This document shows positions 2,326-43,160 of a stretch of DNA of 64,000 bases, in pieces. This DNA is from an uncultured Actinomycetota bacterium (GTDB lineage Bacteria; Actinomycetota; Actinomycetes; Mycobacteriales; QHCD01). Both the position numbers and the translations under genes were made by a program. The notes under the pieces were generated by a model. The model saw nothing but the letters and a program-made list of their open reading frames with translations, was not told where the DNA came from and made no database searches. Location of the stretch: the NCBI GenBank assembly GCA_963775655.1, contig CAVZJT010000007.1:680230-744229 (forward strand). The letters run 5' to 3'. Each line of letters starts with the position of its first letter. The stretch's first letter is position 1.

Positions 2326-3272
2326 CAGTGATCCTCTCGTCCGATGCCGAAGAAGTGCGCGAGTACGCGGGTCAGGACGAACACGACGATGAAGAGCAGG
2401 AACCCGGCCGCCGCGGCGTAGCCGAAGTCCTCGCGCTCGAACGCGGCGCGGTAGATGAAGTACGCGACGCTCATCGTGGATTCGCCCGGGCCGCCTTGCG
2501 TGAGGATGAACGGCTCTTCGAAGATCTGCGCCGCGCCGATGAAGACGGTGATCGCCACGAACGCGGTCACCGGCTTGAGCATCGGGACGGTGACGTTGCG
2601 GAACTTGCCGAGCGCGCCGGCGCCGTCGAGATCGGCTGCCTCGTAGAGGTCGCGGGGAACGCTCTGCAGTCCGGCGAGGAAATAGATGACCAGGTATCCG
2701 GTCCAGCGCCAGATCAGGACGATGACGATCGCCACCTTCGCCCAGTTGGGAGCGCCCAGCCAGTTGACCGGCTTGATCCCGATCAGACCGCGCAGCACGG
2801 CGTTGAGCAGGCCGAAGTTCTGGTCGAAGATGATCGTGAAGACGAGGGAGACCACGACGGGGGACAGCACCATCGGCAGGAAGTAGCCGACCCGGAACAT
2901 GTCCCGGCCGCGTAGTCCGCGGGTGTTGAGCGCGGTGGCGATCACGAGCGCGAGCGGCGTCACGACCAGCACGCTGGCTGCGACGTACCACAGGGTGTTG
3001 GTCACTGCGCCGTGGAAGCTGGAGTCGCGGAACAGCCGGGTGTAGTTGCTCAGTCCGACCCAGGTGCTCGGCCCGATGCCGGCCCACTCGTGCAGGCTGA
3101 GCCAGAACGCGTAGACCGTCGGTCCCAGCAGGAAAAGCACGTAGAGGACGTAGAACGGCGACACGAACAGGTAGGGCACCAGTCGGCCGTGCTGGCGGGT
3201 GCGCCCAGCCGGCAGCGTGCGGGACTTCCGGTCACCCGCCGGTCGGCGCAGGACGGTCGAGGTCTCAGCCAT
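2325..3272 (-). CDS. carbohydrate ABC transporter permease (MalF-like)
   Basis: 315-aa ORF, polytopic, with an EAA loop YEAADLDGAGALGKFRNVTVPMLKP. Confidence 0.85.
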   Translation of the reverse strand: MAETSTVLRRPAGDRKSRTLPAGRTRQHGRLVPYLFVSPFYVLYVLFLLGPTVYAFWLSLHEWAGIGPSTWVGLSNYTRLFRDSSFHGAVTNTLWYVAASVLVVTPLALVIATALNTRGLRGRDMFRVGYFLPMVLSPVVVSLVFTIIFDQNFGLLNAVLRGLIGIKPVNWLGAPNWAKVAIVIVLIWRWTGYLVIYFLAGLQSVPRDLYEAADLDGAGALGKFRNVTVPMLKPVTAFVAITVFIGAAQIFEEPFILTQGGPGESTMSVAYFIYRAAFEREDFGYAAAAGFLLFIVVFVLTRVLAHFFGIGREDH

Positions 3273-3281
3273 TCTCGTCGC

Positions 3282-4604
3282 TCACTTCATCTGGGAGGTG
3301 ATGGATGCGGTGGCGCTCTTGACGGCCTGTGCTGCGGTCTTGCGGCCGGTGAGGGCGTCTTCGAGGGCGATCGACAGCTCGACCGTCATGATGTTCCAGT
3401 ACGGGCTCTGGTACTGGGTCGGCGCATCGTTGGACAGGCTCTTGAACAGCCGGAACGAGTGCTGGCCACCCAGATACGGGTCGGTGAAGTCGATGAGCTC
3501 CTTGTTGTCCCACGCCTTCTTCATGGTCGGCAGGAAGTGGATCCGCTTGAAGCGCTCGACCTGGCCTTCCTCGGTCAGATAGACCTTCTGCAGCAGGTCC
3601 CAGGTCGCATCCGTGCCGGCCATGCCCTTCGAGACGCAGAATCCGGTGCCGCCCCACACGCTGGTGGGATGCCCGCCGCCGGCGAAGCGGGGGAGCGGAC
3701 GCATCCGCCACTTGCCGGAGAGTTCGGGTGCGGTCGACCGGAGGATGAAGCTCTCGAACCAGTCCGGCATGAAGAAGGCGGCGCCCTTGCCCTGCTTGAT
3801 CGCGGCGGTGCCGGGGCCGCCGTAGAAGTCGCTGACCATCAGGAACGCCCCGGAATTCACGCCGTCGACCATCAGCTGGATCGCGTCGACCGTCTCCCGG
3901 CTGTCGATGGTGAGGTTGCCGTCCTTGTCGAAGAACTGTCCGCCCCGCTGCTGCAGCAGGATTCCGAGCCAGGTCAGGTCGCCGCCCTGCGGGATTCCGA
4001 CCACCCCGAGCGACACGCCGTGTTTGTCGTGGACCTGCTTACCGACCTTCAGGACGTCGTCCCACGTGTCGAGTTCGACCGGGATCTTGTACTTCTCGAA
4101 GAGGTCGGCGCGGTAGTAGTAGACCGCGAGCGGGAAGGACGACTCGACGCCGTACTGCCGTCCGCCCACCTGGTACGGCGCCCAGCGGGACGCGAAGAAC
4201 TGGTCCCGGACGGCGGCGATCCGGTCGGTCAGGTCCACGAACACGGTCGGCGCGATCCCGGCCTTCATGAAACGGGAGAACTGCGAGATCTCGATGCCGG
4301 GTAGCTCCGGCGGGTGGCTGTGCGCGGTGTACGCCGAGAGGGTCTTCGTGGCGACGACCTCGGAGTCCTGGACCAGCGGGCGCAGGTTGTAGCGGTACGT
4401 CGCCGACGGCGTCGACAGGCGCTTCGCCCACCAGGTGAAGAGGTTGACGTAGTTCTGGTCGTTGGTCCACAGGTTCACGTCGACCGAACCGGACTTGATC
4501 GGGGCCTCCGGGCCCTGACCGCAGGCTGCGAGGCCGGGCGCCAGCAGGCCTCCAGCGGCCGCCGCGCCCCCGAACCTCAGCAGGTCGCGTCGTGACAAGG
4601 CCAT
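3282..4604 (-). CDS. sugar-type ABC transporter solute-binding lipoprotein (family 1)
   Basis: 440-aa ORF. Twin-arginine/lipoprotein signal MALSRRDLLRFGGAAAAGGLLAPGLAAC. First transporter gene of the operon. Confidence 0.85.
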   Translation of the reverse strand: MALSRRDLLRFGGAAAAGGLLAPGLAACGQGPEAPIKSGSVDVNLWTNDQNYVNLFTWWAKRLSTPSATYRYNLRPLVQDSEVVATKTLSAYTAHSHPPELPGIEISQFSRFMKAGIAPTVFVDLTDRIAAVRDQFFASRWAPYQVGGRQYGVESSFPLAVYYYRADLFEKYKIPVELDTWDDVLKVGKQVHDKHGVSLGVVGIPQGGDLTWLGILLQQRGGQFFDKDGNLTIDSRETVDAIQLMVDGVNSGAFLMVSDFYGGPGTAAIKQGKGAAFFMPDWFESFILRSTAPELSGKWRMRPLPRFAGGGHPTSVWGGTGFCVSKGMAGTDATWDLLQKVYLTEEGQVERFKRIHFLPTMKKAWDNKELIDFTDPYLGGQHSFRLFKSLSNDAPTQYQSPYWNIMTVELSIALEDALTGRKTAAQAVKSATASITSQMK

Positions 4605-35263: not shown

Positions 35264-35292
35264 TTGACCCGGCGGTCCGGGGGGCCCACCAT
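35264..35292 (+). promoter_or_regulatory. candidate promoter of the RiPP cassette (-35 TTGACC, 17-nt spacer, -10 CACCAT)
   Basis: TTGACC is at 35264-35269 and CACCAT at 35287-35292, in the 89-nt gap after ctaB. A GGTAC-N5-GTACC dyad follows at 35296-35310, then AGGAG (35321-35325). Confidence 0.3.
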
Positions 35293-35333
35293 TCGGGTAC
35301 AGGTGGTACCGGGTTCCCGCAGGAGTGTGGGTC

Positions 35334-36158
35334 ATGGCGGTGGATTTCGACGGGACCGGCATCGCCCGGTCGCACATCATGCAGATCCCGGGCGACCGCG
35401 CCGCGGCCTACGTCACCCGGATGCGCGCGAGCAGTCCGGACTTCCGTGACCTACTGGTCCACTTCGAGGAGCGCGGCTTCCGCTTCGACGTGGACCGCGT
35501 GCGGGTCTTCGTCTACCTCGCCGACTCGGTCGACGGCGACGTCCCGACCGCCCACGTGTTGGGCATCCTGCCGAGCTACGGCGTCGCGTTCGCGACCGAC
35601 GCCGGCCACCAGGCGGTGTCGATCGGAGTGCACGACAGCGGATCGGCCATCGCCGGCATGGTCGACGTCGAGCACAACCCCTACCGGTTGATCCGGTTCG
35701 CCACCGTCATCCCCGCCGGGGAGGGCGAGCGGCCGGTCGAGCACTCGGTCGGCGCCGAGGAGCTCGGGTCGTTGTCCGCGCTCGAGATCGCCTCGCGGCT
35801 CGGCCCGCATCCGATCCGCGTGGTCGACCCGGTGCCGGCTCCGGCGACACTCGACCTGCCCGACCTGAGTGCGCTGTCGGCGATGCTGTTCCGTGAGCTG
35901 CTCGACGATCCGCAGACCCGGCCGATGTATCCGGCGTCGGCGATCGAGGCGCTGCTGGCGCAGACCCCACTGGTGCAGAAGTTCGCCACCGTCAACGCGC
36001 TGCAGCAGGGCGAGGCGGTGCGCCAGGTCGTACTGGGCATCGCCGACCCGGCGGCGGCCCGGACCATTCGCGGCGCGTGCAGCTGCTCCACCAGCTGCAA
36101 CGCGTGTACATCGACGTCGTGCAGCATCACCATCGGCAAAGCCACCAGCGTGCAGTGA
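35334..36158 (+). CDS. putative azole-RiPP precursor/substrate protein: 248-aa Cys-free N-terminal region plus Cys/Ser/Thr-rich C-terminal core
   Basis: ATG at 35334 lies 8 nt after AGGAG. Uninterrupted GC3-rich frame ending ...AAARTIRGA-CSCSTSCNACTSTSCSITIGKATSVQ. The stop overlaps the next gene's GTG (GTGA). Confidence 0.75.
   Translation: MAVDFDGTGIARSHIMQIPGDRAAAYVTRMRASSPDFRDLLVHFEERGFRFDVDRVRVFVYLADSVDGDVPTAHVLGILPSYGVAFATDAGHQAVSIGVHDSGSAIAGMVDVEHNPYRLIRFATVIPAGEGERPVEHSVGAEELGSLSALEIASRLGPHPIRVVDPVPAPATLDLPDLSALSAMLFRELLDDPQTRPMYPASAIEALLAQTPLVQKFATVNALQQGEAVRQVVLGIADPAAARTIRGACSCSTSCNACTSTSCSITIGKATSVQ
36078..36155 (+). other. predicted core region CSCSTSCNACTSTSCSITIGKATSVQ
   Basis: All 5 Cys of the protein are here. 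14 of the first 16 residues are Cys, Ser or Thr. Preceded by Gly-Ala. Confidence 0.65.
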
Positions 36159-37123
36159 GCGTCGAGCCGGATCCACCGTCCCACCACCCGGTCGTCGATC
36201 GCGCCGTCCGCGACCGGGTGCTCGCCGTACCGGATCTGCCCGCGACGACGGCGGACGCGCTCCGGCTCCTCGACCAGCTGCTGGACGGCCAACGGCCCGG
36301 CGGGGACGCGCTCGGGGCGGCGCTGACCGGCGGGCTCGAGCCCGCCGCGGTGGCCGACGCATGGGGGCGGCTCGTCGCGGCCGGGGCGTTGCGGGAAGGG
36401 CCGGATGCGACGCCCACCGACGCCAGGTGGGGGGACTATGCCGACCAAGCGCGCACGCTGGCCGTCCTCGCCTACGCCGAACGGGACGCGGAGGCGAGTG
36501 CGTGGCAGCGCGCCGGCGGCGAGCTGCAGGAACGGCTGGCCGCGGCCGCCGTCGTCGTCGCCGGTGCCGGCAGCGCGTGGCGCCGGGTCGCCGAGGATCT
36601 CGAGGCGGCCGGGGTCGGCACGCTGTCACCGGTCGGCGACGCCGACCTGACGGTGCCCGGGCGCTGTGATCTCGTCGTGCACGTCAGCGACGATCCGCGC
36701 CCGGAGCGTCGGTTGCAGATCGGCCGGTCGCTGACCCGGGCCGGCGTACCCGCGGTGTTCTATCACCGCGATCAGGGCGACATCGTGGTCGGTCCGTTCG
36801 TCTACCCGGGCCAGACCGCGTGCGTGGAGTGCGTGGAGTTGCGCCGCGCGGCGGCCCGCAGCCACTGGGCGCCGGGTGGCGAGCCCACGGCTCCACCGCT
36901 GCTCCGGTTTCCGGTCGGCACGGATCTGCTCGCGCTCGACGTGGTGAAGTTTCTCAGCGAGGCGGCGCTGCCGGCGACGAGGGGCCGGATCGTGCGGTTC
37001 GACCTGCGGGTCGGCGTACCGAGCGTGCATCCCGTGCTCCGGCTGCCGCGGTGCCCGGCCTGCGGAGTCGGGCCGGCCGCGCCGGTACGTCGGCTGTGGT
37101 CCGCCGCCGACGCCGGGTCGTGA
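36155..37123 (+). CDS. E1/ThiF-like partner of the cyclodehydratase (TOMM C protein, leader-binding scaffold)
   Basis: GTG at 36155 (V27 of the track ORF). Rossmann-like VVVAGAGSAWRRVAEDLEAAGVG. Paired zinc-type motifs CVECV and CPACG. Confidence 0.75.
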   Translation: MSVEPDPPSHHPVVDRAVRDRVLAVPDLPATTADALRLLDQLLDGQRPGGDALGAALTGGLEPAAVADAWGRLVAAGALREGPDATPTDARWGDYADQARTLAVLAYAERDAEASAWQRAGGELQERLAAAAVVVAGAGSAWRRVAEDLEAAGVGTLSPVGDADLTVPGRCDLVVHVSDDPRPERRLQIGRSLTRAGVPAVFYHRDQGDIVVGPFVYPGQTACVECVELRRAAARSHWAPGGEPTAPPLLRFPVGTDLLALDVVKFLSEAALPATRGRIVRFDLRVGVPSVHPVLRLPRCPACGVGPAAPVRRLWSAADAGS

Positions 37124-38427
37124 CCGCCGCACGCCGCCCGGCCGACCTGGTCGACGGTTACGTCGGACTGGTCACCGACCTCGTCCAGGTGCCGGTCGGC
37201 GCGGCCGACCCGGCCGTGCACGTGGTCGGCGGACGGGTCGCCGACCTGGCGTGTTACGGCGTCGACGTCACCGCCGAGGTCAACGGCAGCGGAGCGGGGA
37301 TGACCCTCGCCGACGCCACGAGTGCCGCAGTGGGGGAGTCCTTCGAGCGCTACGCGTGCTGCCTGCCGCCGCCGGGCGGCCTGATCGCCGGGAGCTACGC
37401 GGACCTGAGCGACCGGGCCGACGCCGATCCGGTGGAGCCGGGACGGTGGGCGCTCTTCGATCCGGGCCAGCAGGTTCCTTTTCCGCACTTCGACGAGCAC
37501 ACTCCGCTGACCTGGGTGACCGGCTGGAGCCTGACGCGGCAGCGGGCGCGGCTCGTCCCGGCCTGTCTCGTCTACTTCGGGCCGGACGCCGACCTGCGCC
37601 CCGACGGCTGCGTCACGATCGCGCCCGCGGTGTCCACCGGCGCCGCCTGCGACAGCACCTCGACCGGCGCGACGGTGCGCGGACTGCTCGAACTGATCGA
37701 GCGGGACGCGGTGCTGATCCACTGGCGCAACCGCATCACGCCCCGCCGGCTGCGGATCGACCCGGCGAGCGGGCTCGCCGCCGACTTCACCGACGTCTTC
37801 GCCCGGCCGGGTCTGCGCTACGAGCTCTACGACGTCTCCCTGGACCTGCCGGCCACCGCCGTGCTCGGAACGCTCACCGACGAGCGCCGCAACCCGCCGG
37901 CGGTGTTCGCCGCCGGTGCGGCGCACCCGGATCCGGAGACCGCTGTGCGCAAGACGCTGGTGGAGCTGGTGCAGGGGCTGCGGTGGGGTGACCAGACGAC
38001 CGGGCGCACCGTCGAGCCGCTCCCCGGGTTCGTCAACATCCGCAGTTTCGAGGACCGGATGCGGCTTTACTCCGGCAACGACCTGAGCGAGGCGTTCGCG
38101 TTCCTGCAGTCGCCGGCCGCTCCGCTCGACCTCAGCACGGTGGCGCGCTCGCGCGAGCCGACCATCGACGTCCTCGGCCGCCTCGTCTCCGGGCTCGGCG
38201 ACCGCGACCTCGACGTCATCGCCGTCGACATCACGACCGACGACCTCGCCGAGTGCGGGGTCGTCGTGGTGAAGACGCTGGTGCCCGGCCTGACCACTAT
38301 GGAGGGCGACCACACCGCGCCGTTCCTCGGCGGCCGGCGGTGGCGGCGACTCCCGGTCGAGCTCGGACTGCTCGATCGGGAGCGCGAACCCGCCGAGCTC
38401 AACCCGTATCCGCACCCCTACCCGTGA
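37120..38427 (+). CDS. YcaO-domain azoline-forming cyclodehydratase (TOMM D protein)
   Basis: GTG at 37120 (V101 of the track ORF) forms a GTGA overlap with the upstream stop. AAVGESFERYA, STGAACDST...RGLLELIERDA, and a terminal proline-rich NPYPHPYP (PxPxP-type) C-terminus. Confidence 0.88.
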   Translation: MTAARRPADLVDGYVGLVTDLVQVPVGAADPAVHVVGGRVADLACYGVDVTAEVNGSGAGMTLADATSAAVGESFERYACCLPPPGGLIAGSYADLSDRADADPVEPGRWALFDPGQQVPFPHFDEHTPLTWVTGWSLTRQRARLVPACLVYFGPDADLRPDGCVTIAPAVSTGAACDSTSTGATVRGLLELIERDAVLIHWRNRITPRRLRIDPASGLAADFTDVFARPGLRYELYDVSLDLPATAVLGTLTDERRNPPAVFAAGAAHPDPETAVRKTLVELVQGLRWGDQTTGRTVEPLPGFVNIRSFEDRMRLYSGNDLSEAFAFLQSPAAPLDLSTVARSREPTIDVLGRLVSGLGDRDLDVIAVDITTDDLAECGVVVVKTLVPGLTTMEGDHTAPFLGGRRWRRLPVELGLLDREREPAELNPYPHPYP

Positions 38428-38435
38428 GGTCGCCG

Positions 38436-39257
38436 ATGGAGGAGAACCGGGCACCGCTGCTCGACGAGGCTCCGGCCGACCTCTTCTCGCCCGCCGAGGT
38501 CTTCCACGAAGCCTCCAAGCTCCAGCCGACCGACATCGACCTCTTCCTCACCATCCGGATGGTCAGCGGGTCACCCGACATCCGCCGGGTGATCTCCCGT
38601 CCGGCCGCCCGGTGCGCCGGGCTGCCCGCGATCGACCTCCCCGCCCCCGCAGGGCTCGCGGACGTCACCGTCGGAGACGCGATCCGGCGCCGCCGGTCGC
38701 GGCGGGAGATGACGGGGGAGGCGGTGGGCATGGGCGAGATCGCGACGTTGCTGTACGCCGCCGCCGGGGTGGTGACGCGGTCGACCGACCCGGCGGACGG
38801 CACGACGTGGGGGTTGCGGACCACCCCGTCCGGCGGCGGGCTCTACCCGGTCGAGGTCTATTGCTGCGCGCTCGATGTGGCCGGCCTGCCGGCCGGCGTG
38901 TACGGCTACCTGCCCGCCTCCCACCAGATCGCCCAGCTCTACCCGGGCTCGACCCGGGCCGAGCTCGACACGGCGCTGAGCGTCCCCGACGTCGCCGACA
39001 CCGCGGCGGCCTGCATCGTGCTGTCCGGTGTCCCGCGCCGTACCGCATTCAAGTACGGCGAGCGCGGCTACCGCTTCGAGCTGCTCGAGTCCGGGCACGC
39101 GTGCCAGAACCTGCTGCTCGCCTCGGCGGCGCTCGATCTCGCCGCGGTCCCGATCGGCGGATTCCTCGACGACGCGCTCAACGACATCCTGCGCGTCGAC
39201 GGGCTCACCGAACACGCGCTGTACGCGATTCCGGTCGGACGACCGGCGGCGGACTGA
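38436..39257 (+). CDS. SagB-type FMN-dependent azoline dehydrogenase (TOMM B protein, nitroreductase fold)
   Basis: ATG at 38436 (M62 of the track ORF) after GAGG. RRRSRREMTGE..., PSGGGLYPVEVY, RTAFKYGERGYRFELLESGHACQNLLLA (Lys-Tyr motif). Confidence 0.88.
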   Translation: MEENRAPLLDEAPADLFSPAEVFHEASKLQPTDIDLFLTIRMVSGSPDIRRVISRPAARCAGLPAIDLPAPAGLADVTVGDAIRRRRSRREMTGEAVGMGEIATLLYAAAGVVTRSTDPADGTTWGLRTTPSGGGLYPVEVYCCALDVAGLPAGVYGYLPASHQIAQLYPGSTRAELDTALSVPDVADTAAACIVLSGVPRRTAFKYGERGYRFELLESGHACQNLLLASAALDLAAVPIGGFLDDALNDILRVDGLTEHALYAIPVGRPAAD

Positions 39258-39274
39258 CCCGACCCGGACGTGAT

Positions 39275-39312
39275 ACGGCCCGGCCGCGGGCTGGTGCCCA
39301 CGGCCGGGCCGT
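39275..39312. terminator. bidirectional hairpin between the convergent dehydrogenase and pepD genes
   Basis: Perfect 12-bp arms ACGGCCCGGCCG / CGGCCGGGCCGT with a 14-nt loop, 18 nt after the dehydrogenase stop. Confidence 0.55.
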
Positions 39313-39368: not shown

Positions 39369-40856
39369 TCAGTGGCCCTTGTCCGAGCCGAGCGTGACGG
39401 TGACGGTGTGGGTGGCTCCGTCCCGCTCGTAGGTGACGGTGACCGCGTCGCCCGGCCGGTTGGCCCGGACCGCGGCGACCAGCGCGTCCGCGGAGTCGAT
39501 CTCCCGGTCGCCGAGCTTGGTCACCACGTCACCCTGCCGCAGGCCGGCCTTGGCGGCCGCTCCGCTGCCGGTGACCGCGGCGAGCTTCGCTCCGGTCGGG
39601 GTGGCGCCGTTGCTGCTCGCGTCGGTGACGCTGACGCCGAGTTGTGCGTGGCTCGCCGTACCGGAGTTGACCAGCTGGTCGACGATGGGCCGCGCCTCGT
39701 CGATCGGGATCGCGAAGCCGACGCCGATCGAGCCGGACTGCTGTCCACCGCCGGCGTCGCTGCCGCCGAGGCTCGCGATCGCGGAGTTGATGCCCACGAC
39801 CTGACCCTGCATGTTGACCAGCGCCCCGCCGGAGTTGCCGGGGTTGATCGCGGCGTCGGTCTGGATGGCGTCGATGACCGTGGCCTGGGGTGACCCGCTG
39901 GACGGGGCCTGATTCGGGCTCTGCTGCGACGAGTCACTGGTCTGCACCGGCCGGTTCAGCGCGCTGACGATGCCCGACGTCACGGTGCCGGACAGGCCGA
40001 GCGGCGAGCCGATCGCCACGACCGGCTGACCGACCGCGAGGCCGGTGGACTTGCCGAGGCTGGCCGGGTGCAGTCCCTGCACGTCCTTGGCCTTGATCAC
40101 GGCGAGGTCGGTCGTCGGATCGCGTCCGACGATGGTCGCCGGCACGGTCTTGCCGTTGTTGAAGGTGACGGTGAGCGTGGCCGACGCGGAGCTCTGCGAG
40201 CCGAGGGCGCCGTTGCCGCTGCCACTGTTGGCGGCGGCGGCCGCCGCCACGACGTGGTTGTTGGTGAGGATCTGGCCGTCCGAGGACAGGATGATGCCCG
40301 AGCCCTCGTCGCCGCCGTCGCTGGTGGCGACGGTGATCGACACGACGCTGGGGAGCACCCCGGCGGCGACCTGCTGCACGGAACCGGCCGGGGCCCTGTT
40401 CGCGGCATTGTTGGAGACCGGCGGTGCGGCGAGCGAGCTCACCACGGTCTTGGTGCCACCGCCGAAGTGGTTTTCGACCGCGGCGCCGACGCCACCGCCG
40501 ACGAGGGCGACGACGAGGAGCGCCACGGTGGCCGCGGCGATGCGGCGGCGGCGAGGCTGCGGGGCACCGGCCGCCGGACCGTAGGTCGAGTAGCCGTACG
40601 GCGGAGGTGGCGGGGGTGGCTGCTGACTCCAGCCGGGGCCGGTCTGGTGCCAGGCGGGTGACCACGGCGACGGTTCGTCCGCCGGGGTACGGGGACCGGG
40701 CGGCAGGGCCGAGGTCGGGTGGGTCTCATCCGCGCCGCCGGCTCCGGCGGCGAAGGGCCAGTCGGAGCGGGGCGCGGGGCCGCCGGCGCCCGGCTGGGTG
40801 GTGCCATCGTCCTGCGGATACGGACGTGGCTCGTCCGGACGGTGATCGTCTGTCAT
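39369..40856 (-). CDS. pepD: HtrA/PepD-like trypsin-fold serine protease with PDZ domain
   Basis: ATG at 40856 (M144 of the track ORF). Pro-rich cytoplasmic N-terminus, one TM span, TNNHVV, DLAVIK, GNSGGALVN catalytic motifs, and a C-terminal PDZ domain. Confidence 0.88.
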   Translation of the reverse strand: MTDDHRPDEPRPYPQDDGTTQPGAGGPAPRSDWPFAAGAGGADETHPTSALPPGPRTPADEPSPWSPAWHQTGPGWSQQPPPPPPPYGYSTYGPAAGAPQPRRRRIAAATVALLVVALVGGGVGAAVENHFGGGTKTVVSSLAAPPVSNNAANRAPAGSVQQVAAGVLPSVVSITVATSDGGDEGSGIILSSDGQILTNNHVVAAAAAANSGSGNGALGSQSSASATLTVTFNNGKTVPATIVGRDPTTDLAVIKAKDVQGLHPASLGKSTGLAVGQPVVAIGSPLGLSGTVTSGIVSALNRPVQTSDSSQQSPNQAPSSGSPQATVIDAIQTDAAINPGNSGGALVNMQGQVVGINSAIASLGGSDAGGGQQSGSIGVGFAIPIDEARPIVDQLVNSGTASHAQLGVSVTDASSNGATPTGAKLAAVTGSGAAAKAGLRQGDVVTKLGDREIDSADALVAAVRANRPGDAVTVTYERDGATHTVTVTLGSDKGH

Positions 40857-40876
40857 GGCCACAGCGTGGTCCGCCA

Positions 40877-40895
40877 GCCTGAGAGGACCCTGAAA
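40877..40895 (-). promoter_or_regulatory. MprA-box-like 8-3-8 direct repeat TTTCAGGG-TCC-TCTCAGGC upstream of pepD
   Basis: Minus-strand reading. Followed by 8 nt, CACGCT (40868-40863), 6 nt, then the pepD ATG. Same geometry as the mprA box. Confidence 0.45.
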
Positions 40896-40936
40896 GCGGG
40901 CTGAAGTATGCAGAAGACTTTGCGATCGGCGCGCGG

Positions 40937-42331
40937 TCAGGTGCGCGCCGGCGCGTGGCCCGGCAGCCGCAGCGTGAACAGCGCCCCGCCGCCCGGCGCC
41001 GTACCGGCCGCGACCACCCCGCCGTGCCGGTCCGCCGCCTGCCGGACGATGGCCAGCCCGAGACCCGACCCGGGCAACCCCCGCGCGTCGACGGCGCGGT
41101 AGAAGCGGTCGAAGACGTGGGGCAGGTCCGCGGGCGCGATCCCGGGGCCCTGGTCGGCGACCTGCATTACGCCGTCGCGCAGCGTGACGGTCACGGTCGC
41201 ACCGGGCGGGCTCCACTTCGCCGCGTTGTCGAGCAGGTTGGTCACCGCGCGTTCCAGCGCGGTCGGGTCGCCGATGACGATCCACGGTTCGACGGCCACC
41301 GCGTAGGCGAGTCCGGGTGCGCGCCGGCGTACCCGGTCGATCGCCCGGTCGATGACGGCGCGCAGGTCGATCGGTTCGGGCCGGATCGCGGGGGAGTCGG
41401 TGCGGGCCAGCTCGACCAGGTCGCCGACCAGCACGGTGAGCTCCTGCGCCTGCGCGCGGACGTCGGCGAGGAGTTCGTCGCGGTCGGCCGGGTCGAGCGT
41501 CGGACCGCCGGCGCGGGCGCTCTGGGCGAGCAGGTCGAGATTGGTGCGCAGGCTGGTCAGCGGCGTACGCAGCTCGTGACCGGCGTCGGCGACCAGTTGT
41601 CGCTGCCGCTCGCGGGACTGCTCGAGCGCCTCCAGCATCAGGTTGAAGCTGCGGGTCAGCCGAGCCAGCTCGTCGTCGCCCTGCACCGGGATCGAGGTCA
41701 GCTCCTGGGTGCGTGCGACGTGCTCGGTCGCGGCCGTGAGCCGCTCGACCGGGCGTAAGCCGGCGCGGGCGACGGCCAGGCCGGCGCAGGCGGCCACCAC
41801 GATCCCGGCCAGTCCGACGATCAGCAGGACGAGGGCGAGCCGACCCAGTTCGTGGTCGGTCGCGGTCGTGGACTGTGCCAGCACGAGTGCGAGACCAGGC
41901 CGCACCGGGACGGCGACGACGCGGTAGGTGACGCCGTCCTCGATCGCGCTGCGCAGCGACGTATGCACGATGCCGTTGGCGACGGCGGTCTCCGGCGAGC
42001 CGATCGGCGGCACCGGCGCGCCGGAGAAGACGATCCGGTCGCCGCCGGAGGTGACCAGCGCGACCCGGACGTCGGTGGCCAGGGCGAGCACGACGTCGGG
42101 GATCCGGCCGAACCTCGTGATGTCGTTGACGAGCTGGGTCTGGGCCGCGGCGGTGGCACGCTGCTCGAGGTTGCTGTCGAGGCGGCTGCGCAGCTCGTGC
42201 CGCACGGTGAGGTAGCCGGCGACCGACGCCATCGCCACCGCGAGGCCGACCGCGACGGCCACCAGCACGGTGATCCGGGTGCGCAGGTTGAGCCGGGTCC
42301 AGGCCATGCCGACCCGGGACGGTCTGCTCAC
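40937..42331 (-). CDS. mprB: two-component sensor histidine kinase (MprB-like)
   Basis: GTG at 42331 forms a GTGA overlap with the mprA stop (alternative ATG at 42307). Two TM spans, HAMP domain, H-box [14 protein letters not shown], ATPase G-boxes. Confidence 0.88.
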
Positions 42332-43011
42332 GGCGGCGTCTCGCGGAGCGCGTAACCGACGCCGCGCACGGTGTGGATCAGCCGGTTCTCGCCCTCGGCT
42401 TCGGTCTTGCGGCGCAGGTAGCCGATGTAGACCTCGAGCGAGTTCTCGGTGGTCGGGAAGTCGTAGCCCCACACCTCCTCGAGGATGCGGGCCCGGCTGA
42501 GCACCTGGCGCGGGTTGCGCAGCAGCAGTTCGAGCAGGCTGAACTCGGTCCGGGTGAGCCGGATCTGCCGGTCGCCGCGGCGGACCTCCCGGGTGCCCGG
42601 GTCGAGGGAGAGGTCGGCGAAGGTCAGCGACTCGTCGTCGGTGACCTCACCGTGGGTACGGCGCAGCAGCGCCCGCAGCCGGGCCAGCAACTCCTCGAGG
42701 GCGAACGGCTTGGGCAGGTAGTCGTCGGCGCCGGCGTCGAGCCCGGCCACCCGGTCGGAGACGGCGTCGCGCGCGGTGAGCACCAGGACCGGCAGGTCGT
42801 CGCCGGCCGCCCGCAGCCGGCGGCAGGTCGCGAGCCCGTCCAGGCCGGGCATCATCACGTCGAGCACCATGGCGTCGGGCCGGTTGGCCGCGACCACGCG
42901 CAGCGCCTCGAATCCGTCCGCCGCCAGCTCGACGTCGTACCCGTTGAAGGTCAGCGACCGGCGCAGCGACTCGCGCACCGGCCGGTCGTCGTCGACTACC
43001 AAGATCCGCAC
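42328..43011 (-). CDS. mprA: OmpR-family response regulator (MprA-like)
   Basis: GTG at 43011 (V29 of the track ORF). [16 protein letters not shown]...DVMMPGLDG...ADDYLPKPF, with a winged-helix C-terminus. Confidence 0.9.
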
Positions 43012-43031
43012 CCGGCCAGTGTGCCGCGACC

Positions 43032-43050
43032 GGCTGAAGGTCGGCTGAGA
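43032..43050 (-). promoter_or_regulatory. MprA-box-like 8-3-8 direct repeat TCTCAGCC-GAC-CTTCAGCC upstream of mprA
   Basis: Minus-strand reading. Followed by 8 nt, CACACT (43023-43018), 6 nt, then the mprA GTG. Confidence 0.45.
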
Positions 43051-43090
43051 AGCGGGTTGCCGCGCCCCCGGCGCGTCGCCCGTGCGCGCC

Positions 43091-43160
43091 CCCATTCCGC
43101 ATCAACGTGACGTTGATGCGGCTAGAGCGCTTGAACGTGACGTTCAAGCGGAATGGCGGG
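43091..43160. repeat. 70-bp nested-palindrome unit, copy 1 (A type, solo)
   Basis: CCCATTCCGCATCAACGTGACGTTGATGCGGCTAGAGCGCTTGAACGTGACGTTCAAGCGGAATGGCGGG. Confidence 0.9.

What the first reader, a model, noticed from the sequence alone, without database searches (positions are those of the whole stretch)
35264..39312. Compact four-gene azole-forming RiPP (TOMM/LAP-type) cassette between ctaB and the mprAB-pepD stress module
Four co-directional, tightly coupled genes sit between two housekeeping loci.
- 35334-36158: a protein ending in a Cys/Ser/Thr-rich tail.
- 36155-37123: an E1/ThiF-like protein with CVECV and CPACG motifs.
- 37120-38427: a YcaO protein with GESFERY, ELIERDA and a terminal NPYPHPYP, the proline-rich C-terminus typical of azoline-forming YcaOs.
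- 38436-39257: a SagB-type nitroreductase-fold protein with the FKYGERGYRF Lys-Tyr motif needed for azoline oxidation.

Two junctions are GTGA start/stop overlaps (36155-36158 and 37120-37123). The third is an 8-nt gap with GAGG, so the four genes look translated as one unit. A C + D + B enzyme set next to a Cys/Ser/Thr-rich C-terminus is the defining signature of thiazole/oxazole installation. I know of no described product with this core, and the substrate architecture is atypical (next finding).
Basis: partly seen in the sequence, partly recalled or inferred. Interest (0 to 1): 0.88.

Follow-up and report, generated by a model that had tools for sequence, protein, structure and literature searches.

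The report
Azole-forming operon with protein-sized substrate
This is a real four-gene operon whose enzymes should turn cysteine, serine and threonine into thiazole and oxazole rings, but the apparent substrate is the tail of a folded 274-residue protein from an unnamed family found in several phyla, not a short peptide.

Summary

**The genes.** Window 35334-39257 (+) carries four translationally coupled genes.
- A: 274 aa, no Pfam or NCBIfam family.
- C: TOMM leader-binding, E1-like protein; TIGR03882 above cutoff.
- D: YcaO cyclodehydratase; TIGR03604 above cutoff, ATP motifs and C-terminal PxPxP invariant.
- B: SagB dehydrogenase; TIGR03605 above cutoff, Lys-Tyr conserved.

**What is new is gene A.**
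- It is one member of a family of about 100 clusters at 50% identity.
- Wherever the upstream DNA was available, its gene lies directly upstream of C-D-B. This holds in Actinomycetota, Bacteroidota, Chloroflexota and Armatimonadota, and in Alphaproteobacteria for a sister subfamily.
- AlphaFold2 gives a confident fold for residues 1-235 (pLDDT 82), with no match among solved structures. A disordered tail follows.
- The tail motif is conserved: C-(S/T/C)5-(C/S)-N-(A/G)-C-(S/T/C)6. Substitutions stay almost entirely within Cys/Ser/Thr.
- About half of the full-length members have an N-terminal extension, nearly all with a Tat-type signal. The window protein has none.
- Only A, C, D and B are conserved across 22 loci. 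No protease, transporter or immunity gene travels with them.

**Reading.** The tail is most likely converted to a polyazole while attached to the folded domain. Whether it is later cleaved off is open. I class it as a new variant of a known kind.

The parts
35264..35333 (+). Intergenic leader between ctaB and gene A. It contains a block of about 50 nt conserved among orthologues, roughly 35273-35322, and an AGGAG Shine-Dalgarno at 35321-35325, 8 nt before the ATG.
   Evidence: Sequence. No sigma-70 consensus promoter was found and no Rfam family matched.
35334..36158 (+). Gene A: a 274-aa protein with no Pfam or NCBIfam family, the presumed substrate of the synthetase.
   Evidence: ORF. Third-position GC is 0.85-1.0 over the full length. 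No family hit. There are 102 cluster representatives with E<=1e-3. Every source that names a member calls it 'hypothetical protein'.
35334..36038 (+). Folded N-terminal domain of A, residues 1-235: two helices, a six-stranded antiparallel sheet, then four or five helices. Near-invariant residues are L18, F51, R55, P80, H92, A94, H114, P116, D192 and Y199.
   Evidence: AlphaFold2 with a 44-sequence alignment gave mean pLDDT 82.3 and pTM 0.82. Foldseek against the PDB found nothing better than E=0.19.
36078..36134 (+). Predicted core, residues 249-267: CSCSTSC-NA-CTSTSCS-ITI. It comprises two blocks of seven cyclisable residues separated by Asn-Ala, then a short hydrophobic stretch. Residues 268-274 (36135-36155) are a variable follower.
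   Evidence: pLDDT is below 50 for residues 242-274. Column counts: C249 71/81, N256 71/81, C258 75/81, S262 73/81. Thirteen positions vary almost only among C, S and T. Purifying selection is shown.
36155..37123 (+). Gene C: an E1/ThiF-like TOMM leader-binding (docking) protein of 322 aa. CxxC pairs sit at residues 223-226 (nt 36821-36832) and 300-303 (nt 37052-37063).
   Evidence: TIGR03882 scores 52.5 bits against a cutoff of 36.9. The ThiF match is weak. There are weak PDB sequence matches to the TruD N-terminal part, MccB and MoeB. The N-terminal half aligns only within the large-precursor clade.
37120..38427 (+). Gene D: a YcaO cyclodehydratase of 435 aa, with the GESFERY and ELIERD ATP/Mg motifs and a C-terminal NPYPHPYP.
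   Evidence: PF02624 at 1.6e-61 and TIGR03604 at 233.3 against 219.25. The motifs are invariant in 16 relatives. The closest solved relatives are LynD, TruD and MusD.
38436..39257 (+). Gene B: a SagB-type FMN dehydrogenase of 273 aa. The Lys206-Tyr207 motif is at nt 39051-39056.
   Evidence: TIGR03605 scores 138.1 against 78.4. K206 is kept in 64/66 and Y207 in 66/66 relatives. PDB relatives are the CyaGox oxidase and McbC.
39277..39310 (.). A G+C-rich hairpin with a perfect 10-bp stem, lying between the convergent gene B and the HtrA/PepD-like gene. It is probably a bidirectional terminator with no U-tract.
   Evidence: Folding gives -52.5 kcal/mol with z=-3.8, and none of 200 shuffles folds as well. 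The consensus terminator scan does not call it.

Best explanation
**Proposed mechanism.** A-C-D-B is one operon. It encodes a thiazole/oxazole (TOMM/LAP-type) synthetase together with a dedicated, protein-sized substrate.
1. Protein A folds into a domain of about 235 residues. This domain takes the place of a leader peptide. (The fold is predicted; the leader role is inferred.)
2. The domain is recognised by the N-terminal half of C, which recruits D. (Inferred.)
3. D, a YcaO enzyme, uses ATP to cyclodehydrate the Cys, Ser and Thr of the disordered tail CSCSTSC-NA-CTSTSCS to azolines. (Inferred from family membership.)
4. B, an FMN dehydrogenase, oxidises the azolines to azoles. (Inferred from family membership.) The result would be two polyazole blocks separated by Asn-Ala.

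All of this happens in the cytoplasm while the tail is still attached to the folded domain.

**Export.** In about half of the family the modified, folded protein is then exported by the Tat pathway. The window protein has no signal and would stay cytoplasmic unless something unlinked exports it.

**Fate of the tail.** It may be released later by a protease encoded elsewhere, or it may stay on the protein. This is not settled. I lean slightly towards release.
For: **Enzyme identity.** Family models pass their curated cutoffs. Catalytic motifs are invariant or nearly so. The closest solved relatives are azoline- and azole-forming enzymes: LynD, TruD, CyaGox and McbC.

**Operon structure.** The genes have 4-nt overlaps and an 8-nt gap. 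Orthologues keep these junctions, except that gene D was called with a later start in L001.

**Linkage of A to C-D-B.**
- An A homologue lies directly upstream of C-D-B in 16 loci. A full-length-homologous sister subfamily does so in 6 more.
- In a neighbour-joining tree, the YcaOs of these loci form one clade.
- A, C, D and B are the only genes conserved across the 22 loci.

**The tail behaves like a substrate.**
- It is disordered in the model.
- The tail and the helices before it are the most constrained part of the gene.
- Thirteen positions exchange almost only among Cys, Ser and Thr. That pattern fits selection for residues that can be cyclised. It does not fit disulfides or metal thiolates.
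- More distant YcaO relatives have ordinary short precursors of 37-105 aa with the same two-block core, for example CTSTSTSCKCTSSSTSCC.
- One locus has four tandem A paralogues ahead of a single C-D-B set, as RiPP precursor genes often do.

**Recognition by C.** The N-terminal half of C aligns only within the large-precursor clade.

**Tat export.** Of 71 full-length representatives, 37 have an N-terminal extension. Nearly all of these carry an RR motif followed by a hydrophobic region.
Against: - There is no chemical evidence that azoles are made.
- No leader protease, transporter or immunity gene is conserved with the cassette, unlike most LAP clusters.
- The window protein has no export signal.
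- The SagC-specific model TIGR03603 is far below its cutoff, 23.5 against 187.65. I could not show that C contains a RiPP recognition element.
- The strongly conserved residues of the A domain (H92, H114, D192, Y199, R55) hint at a function beyond being a handle. The sister subfamily lacks one or both histidines.
- A core conserved across phyla is unusual for an antibiotic RiPP.
Confidence: 0.75

Rival explanations
1. **The product is an azole-tailed protein, not a peptide.** The polyazole tail is a permanent post-translational modification of A. The mature entity is the whole protein, cytoplasmic here and Tat-exported in other lineages. The tail would then work together with the conserved domain, for example in binding a metal, a cofactor, nucleic acid or a membrane.
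For: - No protease or transporter is conserved in 22 loci.
- The core motif is conserved across at least five phyla rather than diversified.
- About half of the members carry Tat-type signals, and Tat exports folded proteins.
- The domain has near-invariant residues H92 (79/81), H114 (79/81), D192 (78/81), Y199 (78/81) and R55 (76/81).
- There is no conserved cleavage motif between the domain and the core.
Against: - Every characterised TOMM releases a peptide (background knowledge).
- Closely related YcaO clusters have short leader-type precursors with the same core. The core therefore works without the domain.
- The sister subfamily lacks H114, and some of its members lack H92 too.
- Tandem precursor paralogues with different tails look like natural-product diversification.
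Confidence: 0.35
2. **A bacteriocin-plus-immunity fusion of the halocin C8 type.** The N-terminal domain would be an immunity or chaperone protein. The C-terminal Cys-rich peptide would be the toxin, separated from it after Tat export.
For: - The architecture runs in parallel: a Tat signal, an N-terminal domain of about 200 aa, then a Cys-rich C-terminal peptide. Real halocin C8-like precursors were retrieved and inspected.
- There is a weak hit to PF22862 Hac8_like_N, E=0.095, covering profile positions 8-92 of 106.
- hhalign of the two families gives probability 61% and E=8e-5.
Against: - The Pfam hit is below its cutoff (13.7 against 27 bits) and appears in only 1 of 81 members.
- Once the Tat signals are trimmed, the hhalign signal falls to probability 3% and E=0.014.
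- The C-terminal peptides are unrelated. Halocin C8 is not YcaO-modified (background knowledge).
- The window protein has no Tat signal.
Confidence: 0.1
3. **A is not the substrate.** It would be an accessory or scaffold protein whose Cys/Ser/Thr-rich end is incidental. The true precursor would be a small unannotated ORF, or would be encoded elsewhere.
For: - Automated pipelines have failed before to find precursors for some actinobacterial TOMM clusters, for example the 'mobilisins' (PMC4603692).
- A is far larger than any known TOMM precursor.
Against: - A six-frame scan of 80 loci found no recurrent alternative Cys/Ser/Thr-rich ORF in the A-type cassettes. The only extra hits there were A paralogues and isolated ORFs confined to one locus each.
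- The tail is conserved, disordered and under purifying selection.
- Short precursors in sister clusters carry the same core.
Confidence: 0.05
4. **The YcaO performs other chemistry.** D would carry out thioamidation or amidine formation, and B would have an unrelated redox role.
For: YcaO enzymes are known to catalyse all three reactions (background knowledge). D has a secondary, sub-threshold hit to the McrA thioamidation YcaO model, 67 bits against a cutoff of 365.
Against: - No TfuA is conserved with the cassette.
- The best model is the azoline-forming SagD subfamily, above its cutoff.
- The PxPxP C-terminus is present, and an E1-like partner and a SagB dehydrogenase with Lys-Tyr are conserved.
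- The substrate positions are restricted to residues that can be cyclised.
Confidence: 0.05

Closest known systems
Linear azol(in)e-containing peptide (LAP/TOMM) synthetases with discrete C, D and B proteins, such as microcin B17 McbBCD and streptolysin S SagBCD
   Same: The enzyme set is the same: an E1-like docking protein, a YcaO cyclodehydratase with a PxPxP C-terminus, and a SagB/McbC-type FMN dehydrogenase with Lys-Tyr. A Cys/Ser/Thr-rich C-terminal substrate gene sits directly upstream.
   Different: - The substrate is a 274-aa protein with a folded domain of about 235 aa, not a leader of 20-60 aa.
- No protease, ABC transporter or immunity gene is conserved with the cassette.
- The core is conserved across phyla.
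- The SagC-specific model is not met.
Plantazolicin / coryneazolicin-type polyazole LAPs
   Same: The predicted product has contiguous runs of cyclisable residues arranged as two blocks around a short spacer. This resembles the two pentazole blocks of plantazolicin (background knowledge compared with the core).
   Different: - No methyltransferase or CAAX-type protease is conserved.
- The blocks are longer, seven residues each.
- The spacer is a conserved Asn-(Ala/Gly).
- The leader is a protein domain.
NHLP / Nif11 precursors (proteusin-type), whose long structured leaders engage enzymes by protein-protein contacts
   Same: The concept is the same: a leader derived from a folded protein domain, recognised through tertiary structure by, among others, an azoline-forming YcaO (PMC12455567).
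   Different: - There is no sequence relationship. No NHLP or Nif11 model hits A.
- The domain here is roughly two to three times larger.
- It has no match among solved structures.
- It often carries a Tat signal.
- NHLP systems usually have a GG cleavage site and a C39 peptidase transporter, which are absent here.
Halocin C8 precursor (ProC8) of haloarchaea
   Same: The overall architecture in many family members is the same: a Tat signal, an N-terminal domain of about 200 aa, then a Cys-rich C-terminal peptide.
   Different: - Homology is not demonstrated.
- The C-terminal peptide is unrelated.
- No YcaO chemistry is involved in halocin C8.
- The window protein has no signal.
Bufferins (MNIO-modified, signal-peptide-bearing precursors)
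   Same: Cysteine-derived heterocycles are installed in the cytoplasm on a larger-than-usual precursor. That precursor carries an export signal rather than a classical leader, and its modified residues are conserved (background knowledge, not tested here).
   Different: - The enzyme family differs: MNIO against YcaO/SagB.
- The heterocycle differs: thiooxazole against thiazole/oxazole.
- The export route differs: Sec against Tat.
- The precursor families are unrelated.

Membership tests
TOMM/LAP azole synthetase (B-C-D) | YcaO cyclodehydratase domain with the ATP/Mg-binding motifs | tested here: met
   PF02624 at 1.6e-61 and TIGR03604 at 233.3 bits against a cutoff of 219.25. E73, E76, R77, E191, E194, R195 and D196 are invariant in 16 relatives.
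TOMM/LAP azole synthetase (B-C-D) | Proline-rich PxPxP C-terminus of azoline-forming YcaOs | tested here: met
   D ends in NPYPHPYP. N428, P431, H432, P433, Y434 and P435 are invariant.
TOMM/LAP azole synthetase (B-C-D) | E1/ThiF-like partner (C protein) that binds the precursor | tested here: met
   TIGR03882 'TOMM precursor leader peptide-binding protein' scores 52.5 against 36.9. Two CxxC pairs are present. There is a weak match to the E1-like part of TruD. A RiPP recognition element as such was not demonstrated.
TOMM/LAP azole synthetase (B-C-D) | SagC-subfamily C protein (TIGR03603) | tested here: not met
   23.5 bits against a cutoff of 187.65. C is a different branch of the docking proteins.
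TOMM/LAP azole synthetase (B-C-D) | SagB-type FMN dehydrogenase with the Lys-Tyr motif | tested here: met
   TIGR03605 scores 138.1 against 78.4. K206 is kept in 64/66 and Y207 in 66/66 relatives. McbC and CyaGox are the solved relatives.
TOMM/LAP azole synthetase (B-C-D) | Adjacent precursor gene with a Cys/Ser/Thr-rich C-terminal core | tested here: met
   The A tail is CSCSTSCNACTSTSCS. It is conserved in family members in at least 22 loci and about 70-75 of 81 representatives.
TOMM/LAP azole synthetase (B-C-D) | Short unstructured leader peptide with a dedicated protease and/or transporter | tested here: not met
   The part preceding the core is a confidently folded domain of about 235 aa. 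No protease or transporter is conserved in 22 loci.
TOMM/LAP azole synthetase (B-C-D) | Azol(in)e heterocycles shown in the product | not testable with these tools
   This needs mass spectrometry or NMR on co-expressed A with C, D and B.
NHLP / Nif11 long-leader precursors | Leader homologous to nitrile hydratase alpha or to Nif11 | tested here: not met
   A has no NCBIfam or Pfam hit at E<=0.01. No such family appears among 81 members at E<=10.
Halocin C8-like precursors | Hac8_like_N domain (PF22862) | tested here: inconclusive
   13.7 bits against a cutoff of 27, and in only 1 of 81 members. hhalign gives probability 61% with the Tat signals included and 3% without them. No structure comparison was possible.
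Halocin C8-like precursors | Twin-arginine signal peptide | tested here: not met
   The window protein starts at the domain, with an in-frame stop just upstream. About half of the wider family does have a Tat-like signal.

The most novel reading that the evidence does not exclude
The A family would be the first case of thiazole/oxazole (YcaO/SagB) chemistry used to mature a protein rather than to make a peptide. The protein would be a folded domain of about 235 residues with no match among solved structures. It would permanently carry a conserved two-block polyazole tail. It would be exported by Tat in about half of the lineages and stay cytoplasmic in the rest, including here. The tail would act with the conserved His/His/Asp/Tyr residues of the domain, for example as a ligand-binding or metal-binding appendage.
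Probability: 0.3. Interest if true: 0.9.

Novelty: new variant of a known kind. Interest (0 to 1): 0.7.

Why it matters
**Blind spot in genome mining.** Searches for thiazole/oxazole peptides look for short precursor ORFs. A substrate of 230-360 residues is invisible to them. These cassettes would therefore be filed as clusters with no identifiable precursor.

**How widespread it is.** The family is neither a singleton nor a local oddity. I found about 100 sequence clusters in at least five phyla. They share a conserved fold, a conserved core and frequent Tat signals. Every database that names a member calls it 'hypothetical protein'.

**What it would show.**
- If the tail is modified as predicted, the system gives a natural example of a YcaO synthetase docking on a folded protein. 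That is useful for engineering azoles into proteins.
- It also suggests how insoluble polyazoles could be kept soluble and exported by Tat.
- If the tail is never cleaved, backbone heterocyclisation becomes a protein modification rather than only a peptide one.

**Strains for testing.** Cultured strains carry the cassette: Planomonospora sp. ID67723, Nocardioides sp. LHG3406-4 and Pontibacter toksunensis KCTC 23984. Nonomuraea species and Cellulomonas sp. 179-A carry the sister subfamily.

Tried and rejected
**Searches that failed or were unavailable**
- Exact-protein lookups found no contig for the window's own A or D. The source contig was therefore not recovered. The nearest genome is a Jatrophihabitantaceae MAG, with 93-97% amino-acid identity.
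- Word-indexed homologue searches found only 3 and then 7 members of the A family. The exhaustive HMM search found 102.
- The promoter and terminator consensus scans found nothing. Rfam gave only a chance miRNA hit. There are no tRNA genes nearby.
- NCBIfam has no family for the short-precursor relatives or for the sister subfamily.

**Homology leads followed and not accepted**
- Halocin C8 N-domain. I retrieved real halocin C8-like genes using a peptide probe recalled from memory. The profile-profile signal depends largely on the Tat signals. I keep this as an architectural analogy only.
- Profile matches of A to insect allergen repeats and to a Gloeobacter phycobilisome linker. These are short helical-motif similarities and I did not pursue them as homology.
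- A metal site formed by H92 and H114 as a general feature. This is weakened because the sister subfamily lacks one or both histidines.

**Literature**
- Motif-string searches and topic searches found no description of this family.
- The 2015 TOMM atlas has no matching class. Its 'mobilisin' class has a fused cyclodehydratase.

Full report
**1. The observation**

| Gene | Coordinates | Length |
|---|---|---|
| A | 35334-36158 | 274 aa |
| C | 36155-37123 | 322 aa |
| D | 37120-38427 | 435 aa |
| B | 38436-39257 | 273 aa |

- The A/C and C/D junctions are GTGA overlaps. D and B are 8 nt apart, with GAGG overlapping the D stop codon.
- The orthologous loci L003/L004 keep both 4-nt overlaps and L001 keeps the A-C one; both loci keep the 8-nt D-B gap. 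In L001 gene D was called with a later start.
- Every quoted motif is present.
- In this genome of about 72% G+C, third-position GC is 0.85-1.00 along the whole of frame A. An AGGAG lies 8 nt upstream of the ATG at 35334. A is therefore one long coding unit, not a short peptide gene behind a spurious extension.
- A has no cysteine in its first 248 residues and five in its last 26.

**2. The enzymes**

Three curated NCBIfam models pass their cutoffs.

| Gene | Model | Score | Cutoff |
|---|---|---|---|
| D | TIGR03604, SagD-type YcaO | 233.3 | 219.25 |
| B | TIGR03605, SagB dehydrogenase | 138.1 | 78.4 |
| C | TIGR03882, TOMM leader-binding protein | 52.5 | 36.9 |

- Pfam agrees: YcaO at 1.6e-61 and Nitroreductase at 1.1e-22.
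- In 16 YcaO relatives at 37-80% identity, the ATP/Mg motifs (E73, E76, R77; E191, E194, R195, D196) and the terminal N-P-x-P-H-P-Y-P are invariant.
- In 66 B relatives, Lys206 is kept in 64 and Tyr207 in all 66.
- The closest solved relatives are enzymes that form azolines and azoles. For D they are LynD, TruD and MusD. For B they are CyaGox and McbC. For C there is a weak match to the E1-like part of TruD.
- The SagC-specific model is not met, at 23.5 against 187.65. C is therefore a different branch of docking proteins.

**3. Protein A belongs to a family**

- A has no Pfam or NCBIfam family.
- The word-indexed search found only itself, an 84% orthologue and one 35% relative.
- An exhaustive profile search of 1.84 billion cluster representatives found 102 with E<=1e-3. 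About 80 of the retrieved sequences are 200-400 residues long, that is, full length.
- Every source that names a member calls it 'hypothetical protein'.
- I retrieved 80 genomic loci using the YcaO. tblastn and ORF extraction placed an A homologue directly upstream of C-D-B in the following:
  - Jatrophihabitantaceae and related MAGs.
  - Planomonospora, Nocardioides and another actinomycete MAG.
  - Pontibacter, Cyclobacteriaceae, Flavobacteriales, Flavipsychrobacter and UBA6221 (Bacteroidota).
  - Chloroflexaceae and Caldilineales.
  - Armatimonadota.
- A sister subfamily of 225-243 aa is homologous over its full length, with E between 1e-26 and 1e-18. It holds the same position in Nonomuraea, Cellulomonas and Rhodobacteraceae.
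- In a neighbour-joining tree, the YcaOs of all these loci form one clade.
- Clustering all ORFs of the 22 loci shows that only A, C, D and B are conserved. No protease, transporter or immunity gene travels with them.

**4. Anatomy of A**

- *Fold.* With a 44-sequence alignment, AlphaFold2 gives mean pLDDT 82.3 and pTM 0.82. Residues 1-235 fold as two helices, a six-stranded antiparallel sheet and four or five helices. Residues 242-274 are disordered, with pLDDT below 50.
- *Structural relatives.* Foldseek against the PDB finds nothing better than E=0.19. The other fold libraries were not available.
- *Conserved domain residues*:

| Residue | Kept in (of 81) |
|---|---|
| H92 | 79 |
| H114 | 79 |
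| P80 | 79 |
| D192 | 78 |
| Y199 | 78 |
| R55 | 76 |

- *Conserved tail residues.* C249 is kept in 71, N256 in 71, C258 in 75 and S262 in 73 of 81.
- *Tail motif.* The consensus is hydrophobic-C-S-(T/S)-S-T-S-(C/S)-N-(A/G)-C-T-S-T-S-(T/S/C)-S-hydrophobic. Thirteen tail positions vary almost only among Cys, Ser and Thr. Some members are nearly all Cys. This is the pattern expected if selection acts on the ability to form a heterocycle. It is not the pattern expected for disulfides, metal thiolates or glycosylation sites.
- *Selection.* Counts are codon changes between the window and L006/L007.

| Region | Synonymous | Non-synonymous |
|---|---|---|
| Tail (27 codons) | 6-7 | 0-1 |
| Codons 1-180 | 38-41 | 37-39 |

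**5. Export signals**

- Of 71 full-length representatives, 37 have an N-terminal extension of 25-110 residues. Nearly all of these show a twin-arginine motif (S/T-R-R-x-F/L-L/G), a Gly/Ala-rich hydrophobic region and an A-x-A site.
- Pfam's TAT_signal model detects only three of them, weakly. The call therefore rests mainly on the motif.
- Tat exports folded proteins. That fits folding and ATP/FMN-dependent modification in the cytoplasm before export.
- The window protein and its close orthologues have no signal.

**6. Link to ordinary peptide systems**

- More distant YcaO relatives in the same search have short precursors of 37-105 aa. Their leaders carry a short acidic motif (F/L-E-E/Q-L-E) and their cores have the same two-block design. 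Examples are ...FEELEQRIVPISGACATSSSCSCSSSSCVVIA and ...CTSTSTSCKCTSSSTSCC.
- The core scaffold is therefore older than the large domain. The domain replaced, or was added to, a classical leader in one clade.
- The N-terminal half of C aligns only within that clade. This fits co-evolution of the docking protein with the new 'leader'.
- One Flavipsychrobacter locus has four tandem A paralogues ahead of a single C-D-B set. Three of them have a different tail. That is typical of RiPP precursor genes.

**7. Mechanism**

*Shown:*
- The operon structure.
- The family membership of C, D and B, with catalytic motifs intact.
- Conserved linkage to A.
- A predicted folded domain followed by a disordered, constrained tail restricted to Cys, Ser and Thr.

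*Inferred:*
- C binds the A domain and recruits D.
- D cyclodehydrates the tail.
- B oxidises the azolines.
- The product is two polyazole blocks around Asn-Ala.
- Tat exports the modified protein where a signal exists.

*Open:* whether the tail is then cleaved off.
- For a released peptide: all precedent, the short-precursor relatives, and the diversified paralogues.
- For a permanently modified protein: the absence of any conserved protease or exporter, the conserved core, and the conserved domain residues.
- The His pair cannot be a universal requirement, because the sister subfamily lacks it.

**8. Comparison with known systems**

- The enzymology matches LAP/TOMM B-C-D synthetases.
- The substrate does not match any described class. 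The 2015 TOMM atlas lists about 20 families and none resembles this one.
- No paper in the searchable library contains the core strings. The topic searches also found nothing.
- The nearest concept is the protein-protein engagement of NHLP leaders by a YcaO (PMC12455567). A is unrelated to NHLP or Nif11.
- Halocin C8 precursors share the architecture of Tat signal, large N-terminal domain and Cys-rich C-terminal peptide. Homology is not established.
- The literature library covers open-access papers only. A description in a subscription journal cannot be excluded.

**9. Verdict**

- I class it as a new variant of a known kind, with interest 0.7.
- The cassette's position between ctaB and the HtrA/PepD-like two-component module is conserved only among close relatives. 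It carries no evident functional meaning.

Noticed in passing
L015:788-4539: A Flavipsychrobacter MAG has four tandem A-family paralogues (788-1618, 1670-2500, 2550-3380, 3736-4539) ahead of one C-D-B set. Three of them carry a different tail, with a single Cys, a Ser/Thr run and then a Gly-rich ...GGFGGFGGG...W end.
   Followed up: partly
L053:8508-8621; L063:4768-4890; L043:4531-4713; L030:4419-4667; L028:4729-4896: More distant YcaO clusters have short precursors of 37-105 aa with the same two-block core, for example CTSTSTSCKCTSSSTSCC. They occur in Prevotella/Hoylesella, Maricaulaceae, Bryobacteraceae and Clostridia. They have no NCBIfam family and no literature hit. This looks like an undescribed LAP class in its own right.
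   Followed up: partly
window 35376-35519 (A residues 15-62): The N-terminal helix hairpin of the A profile (...SPDF..L...F...G..F) matches the tandem repeats of insect allergen proteins of the Bla g 1 type (P0210, P0217), with 7-14 repeat matches each. One family member also has a weak PF06757 hit. It is probably a shared helical motif.
   Followed up: no
window about 35780-35970 (A profile positions 150-213): The A profile matches three repeats of the Gloeobacter phycobilisome linker Glr2806 (PDB 9k9w chain M2). The summed E-value is 1.6e-6, at about 10 bits per repeat. The aligned stretches are ...AVYRQVLGNTYVMESERPTQAESLL and ...aayrellnDsyarplYppeglesLl. Unexplained.
   Followed up: partly
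window 39277-39310: A perfect 10-bp G+C hairpin lies between the convergent gene B and the HtrA/PepD-like gene. Folding gives -52.5 kcal/mol with z=-3.8. It has no U-tract and the consensus terminator scan misses it.
   Followed up: yes
window 35273-35322: An upstream block of about 50 nt is conserved among orthologues whose proteins are only about 78-84% identical. L006 and L007 carry an insertion of about 49 nt between this block and the start codon. It may be a promoter or operator. No sigma-70 consensus and no Rfam family match it.
   Followed up: partly
family members P0162, P0175, P0195, P0221, P0173: Some A-family tails are extreme variants. Several are almost pure poly-Cys, for example ...CCCCTCCCCNGCCSCCCC. 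One is Gly/Asn/Cys-rich (...GCSGNSGSCGNCGTNCGNNCGNSG) and recalls microcin B17 or heterocycloanthracin cores.
   Followed up: no
L022-L026 (sister subfamily of A): The Nonomuraea, Cellulomonas and Rhodobacteraceae proteins are homologous to A over their full length. They replace H114 with an acidic or basic residue, and in L025 and L026 they also replace H92. The near-invariant His pair is therefore specific to the main subfamily.
   Followed up: yes
window 39369-43095 (- strand): The neighbours called 'mprAB-pepD' match HtrA-type protease and OmpR/HisKA models only below the equivalog cutoffs. The naming rests on synteny, not on a passed model.
   Followed up: yes
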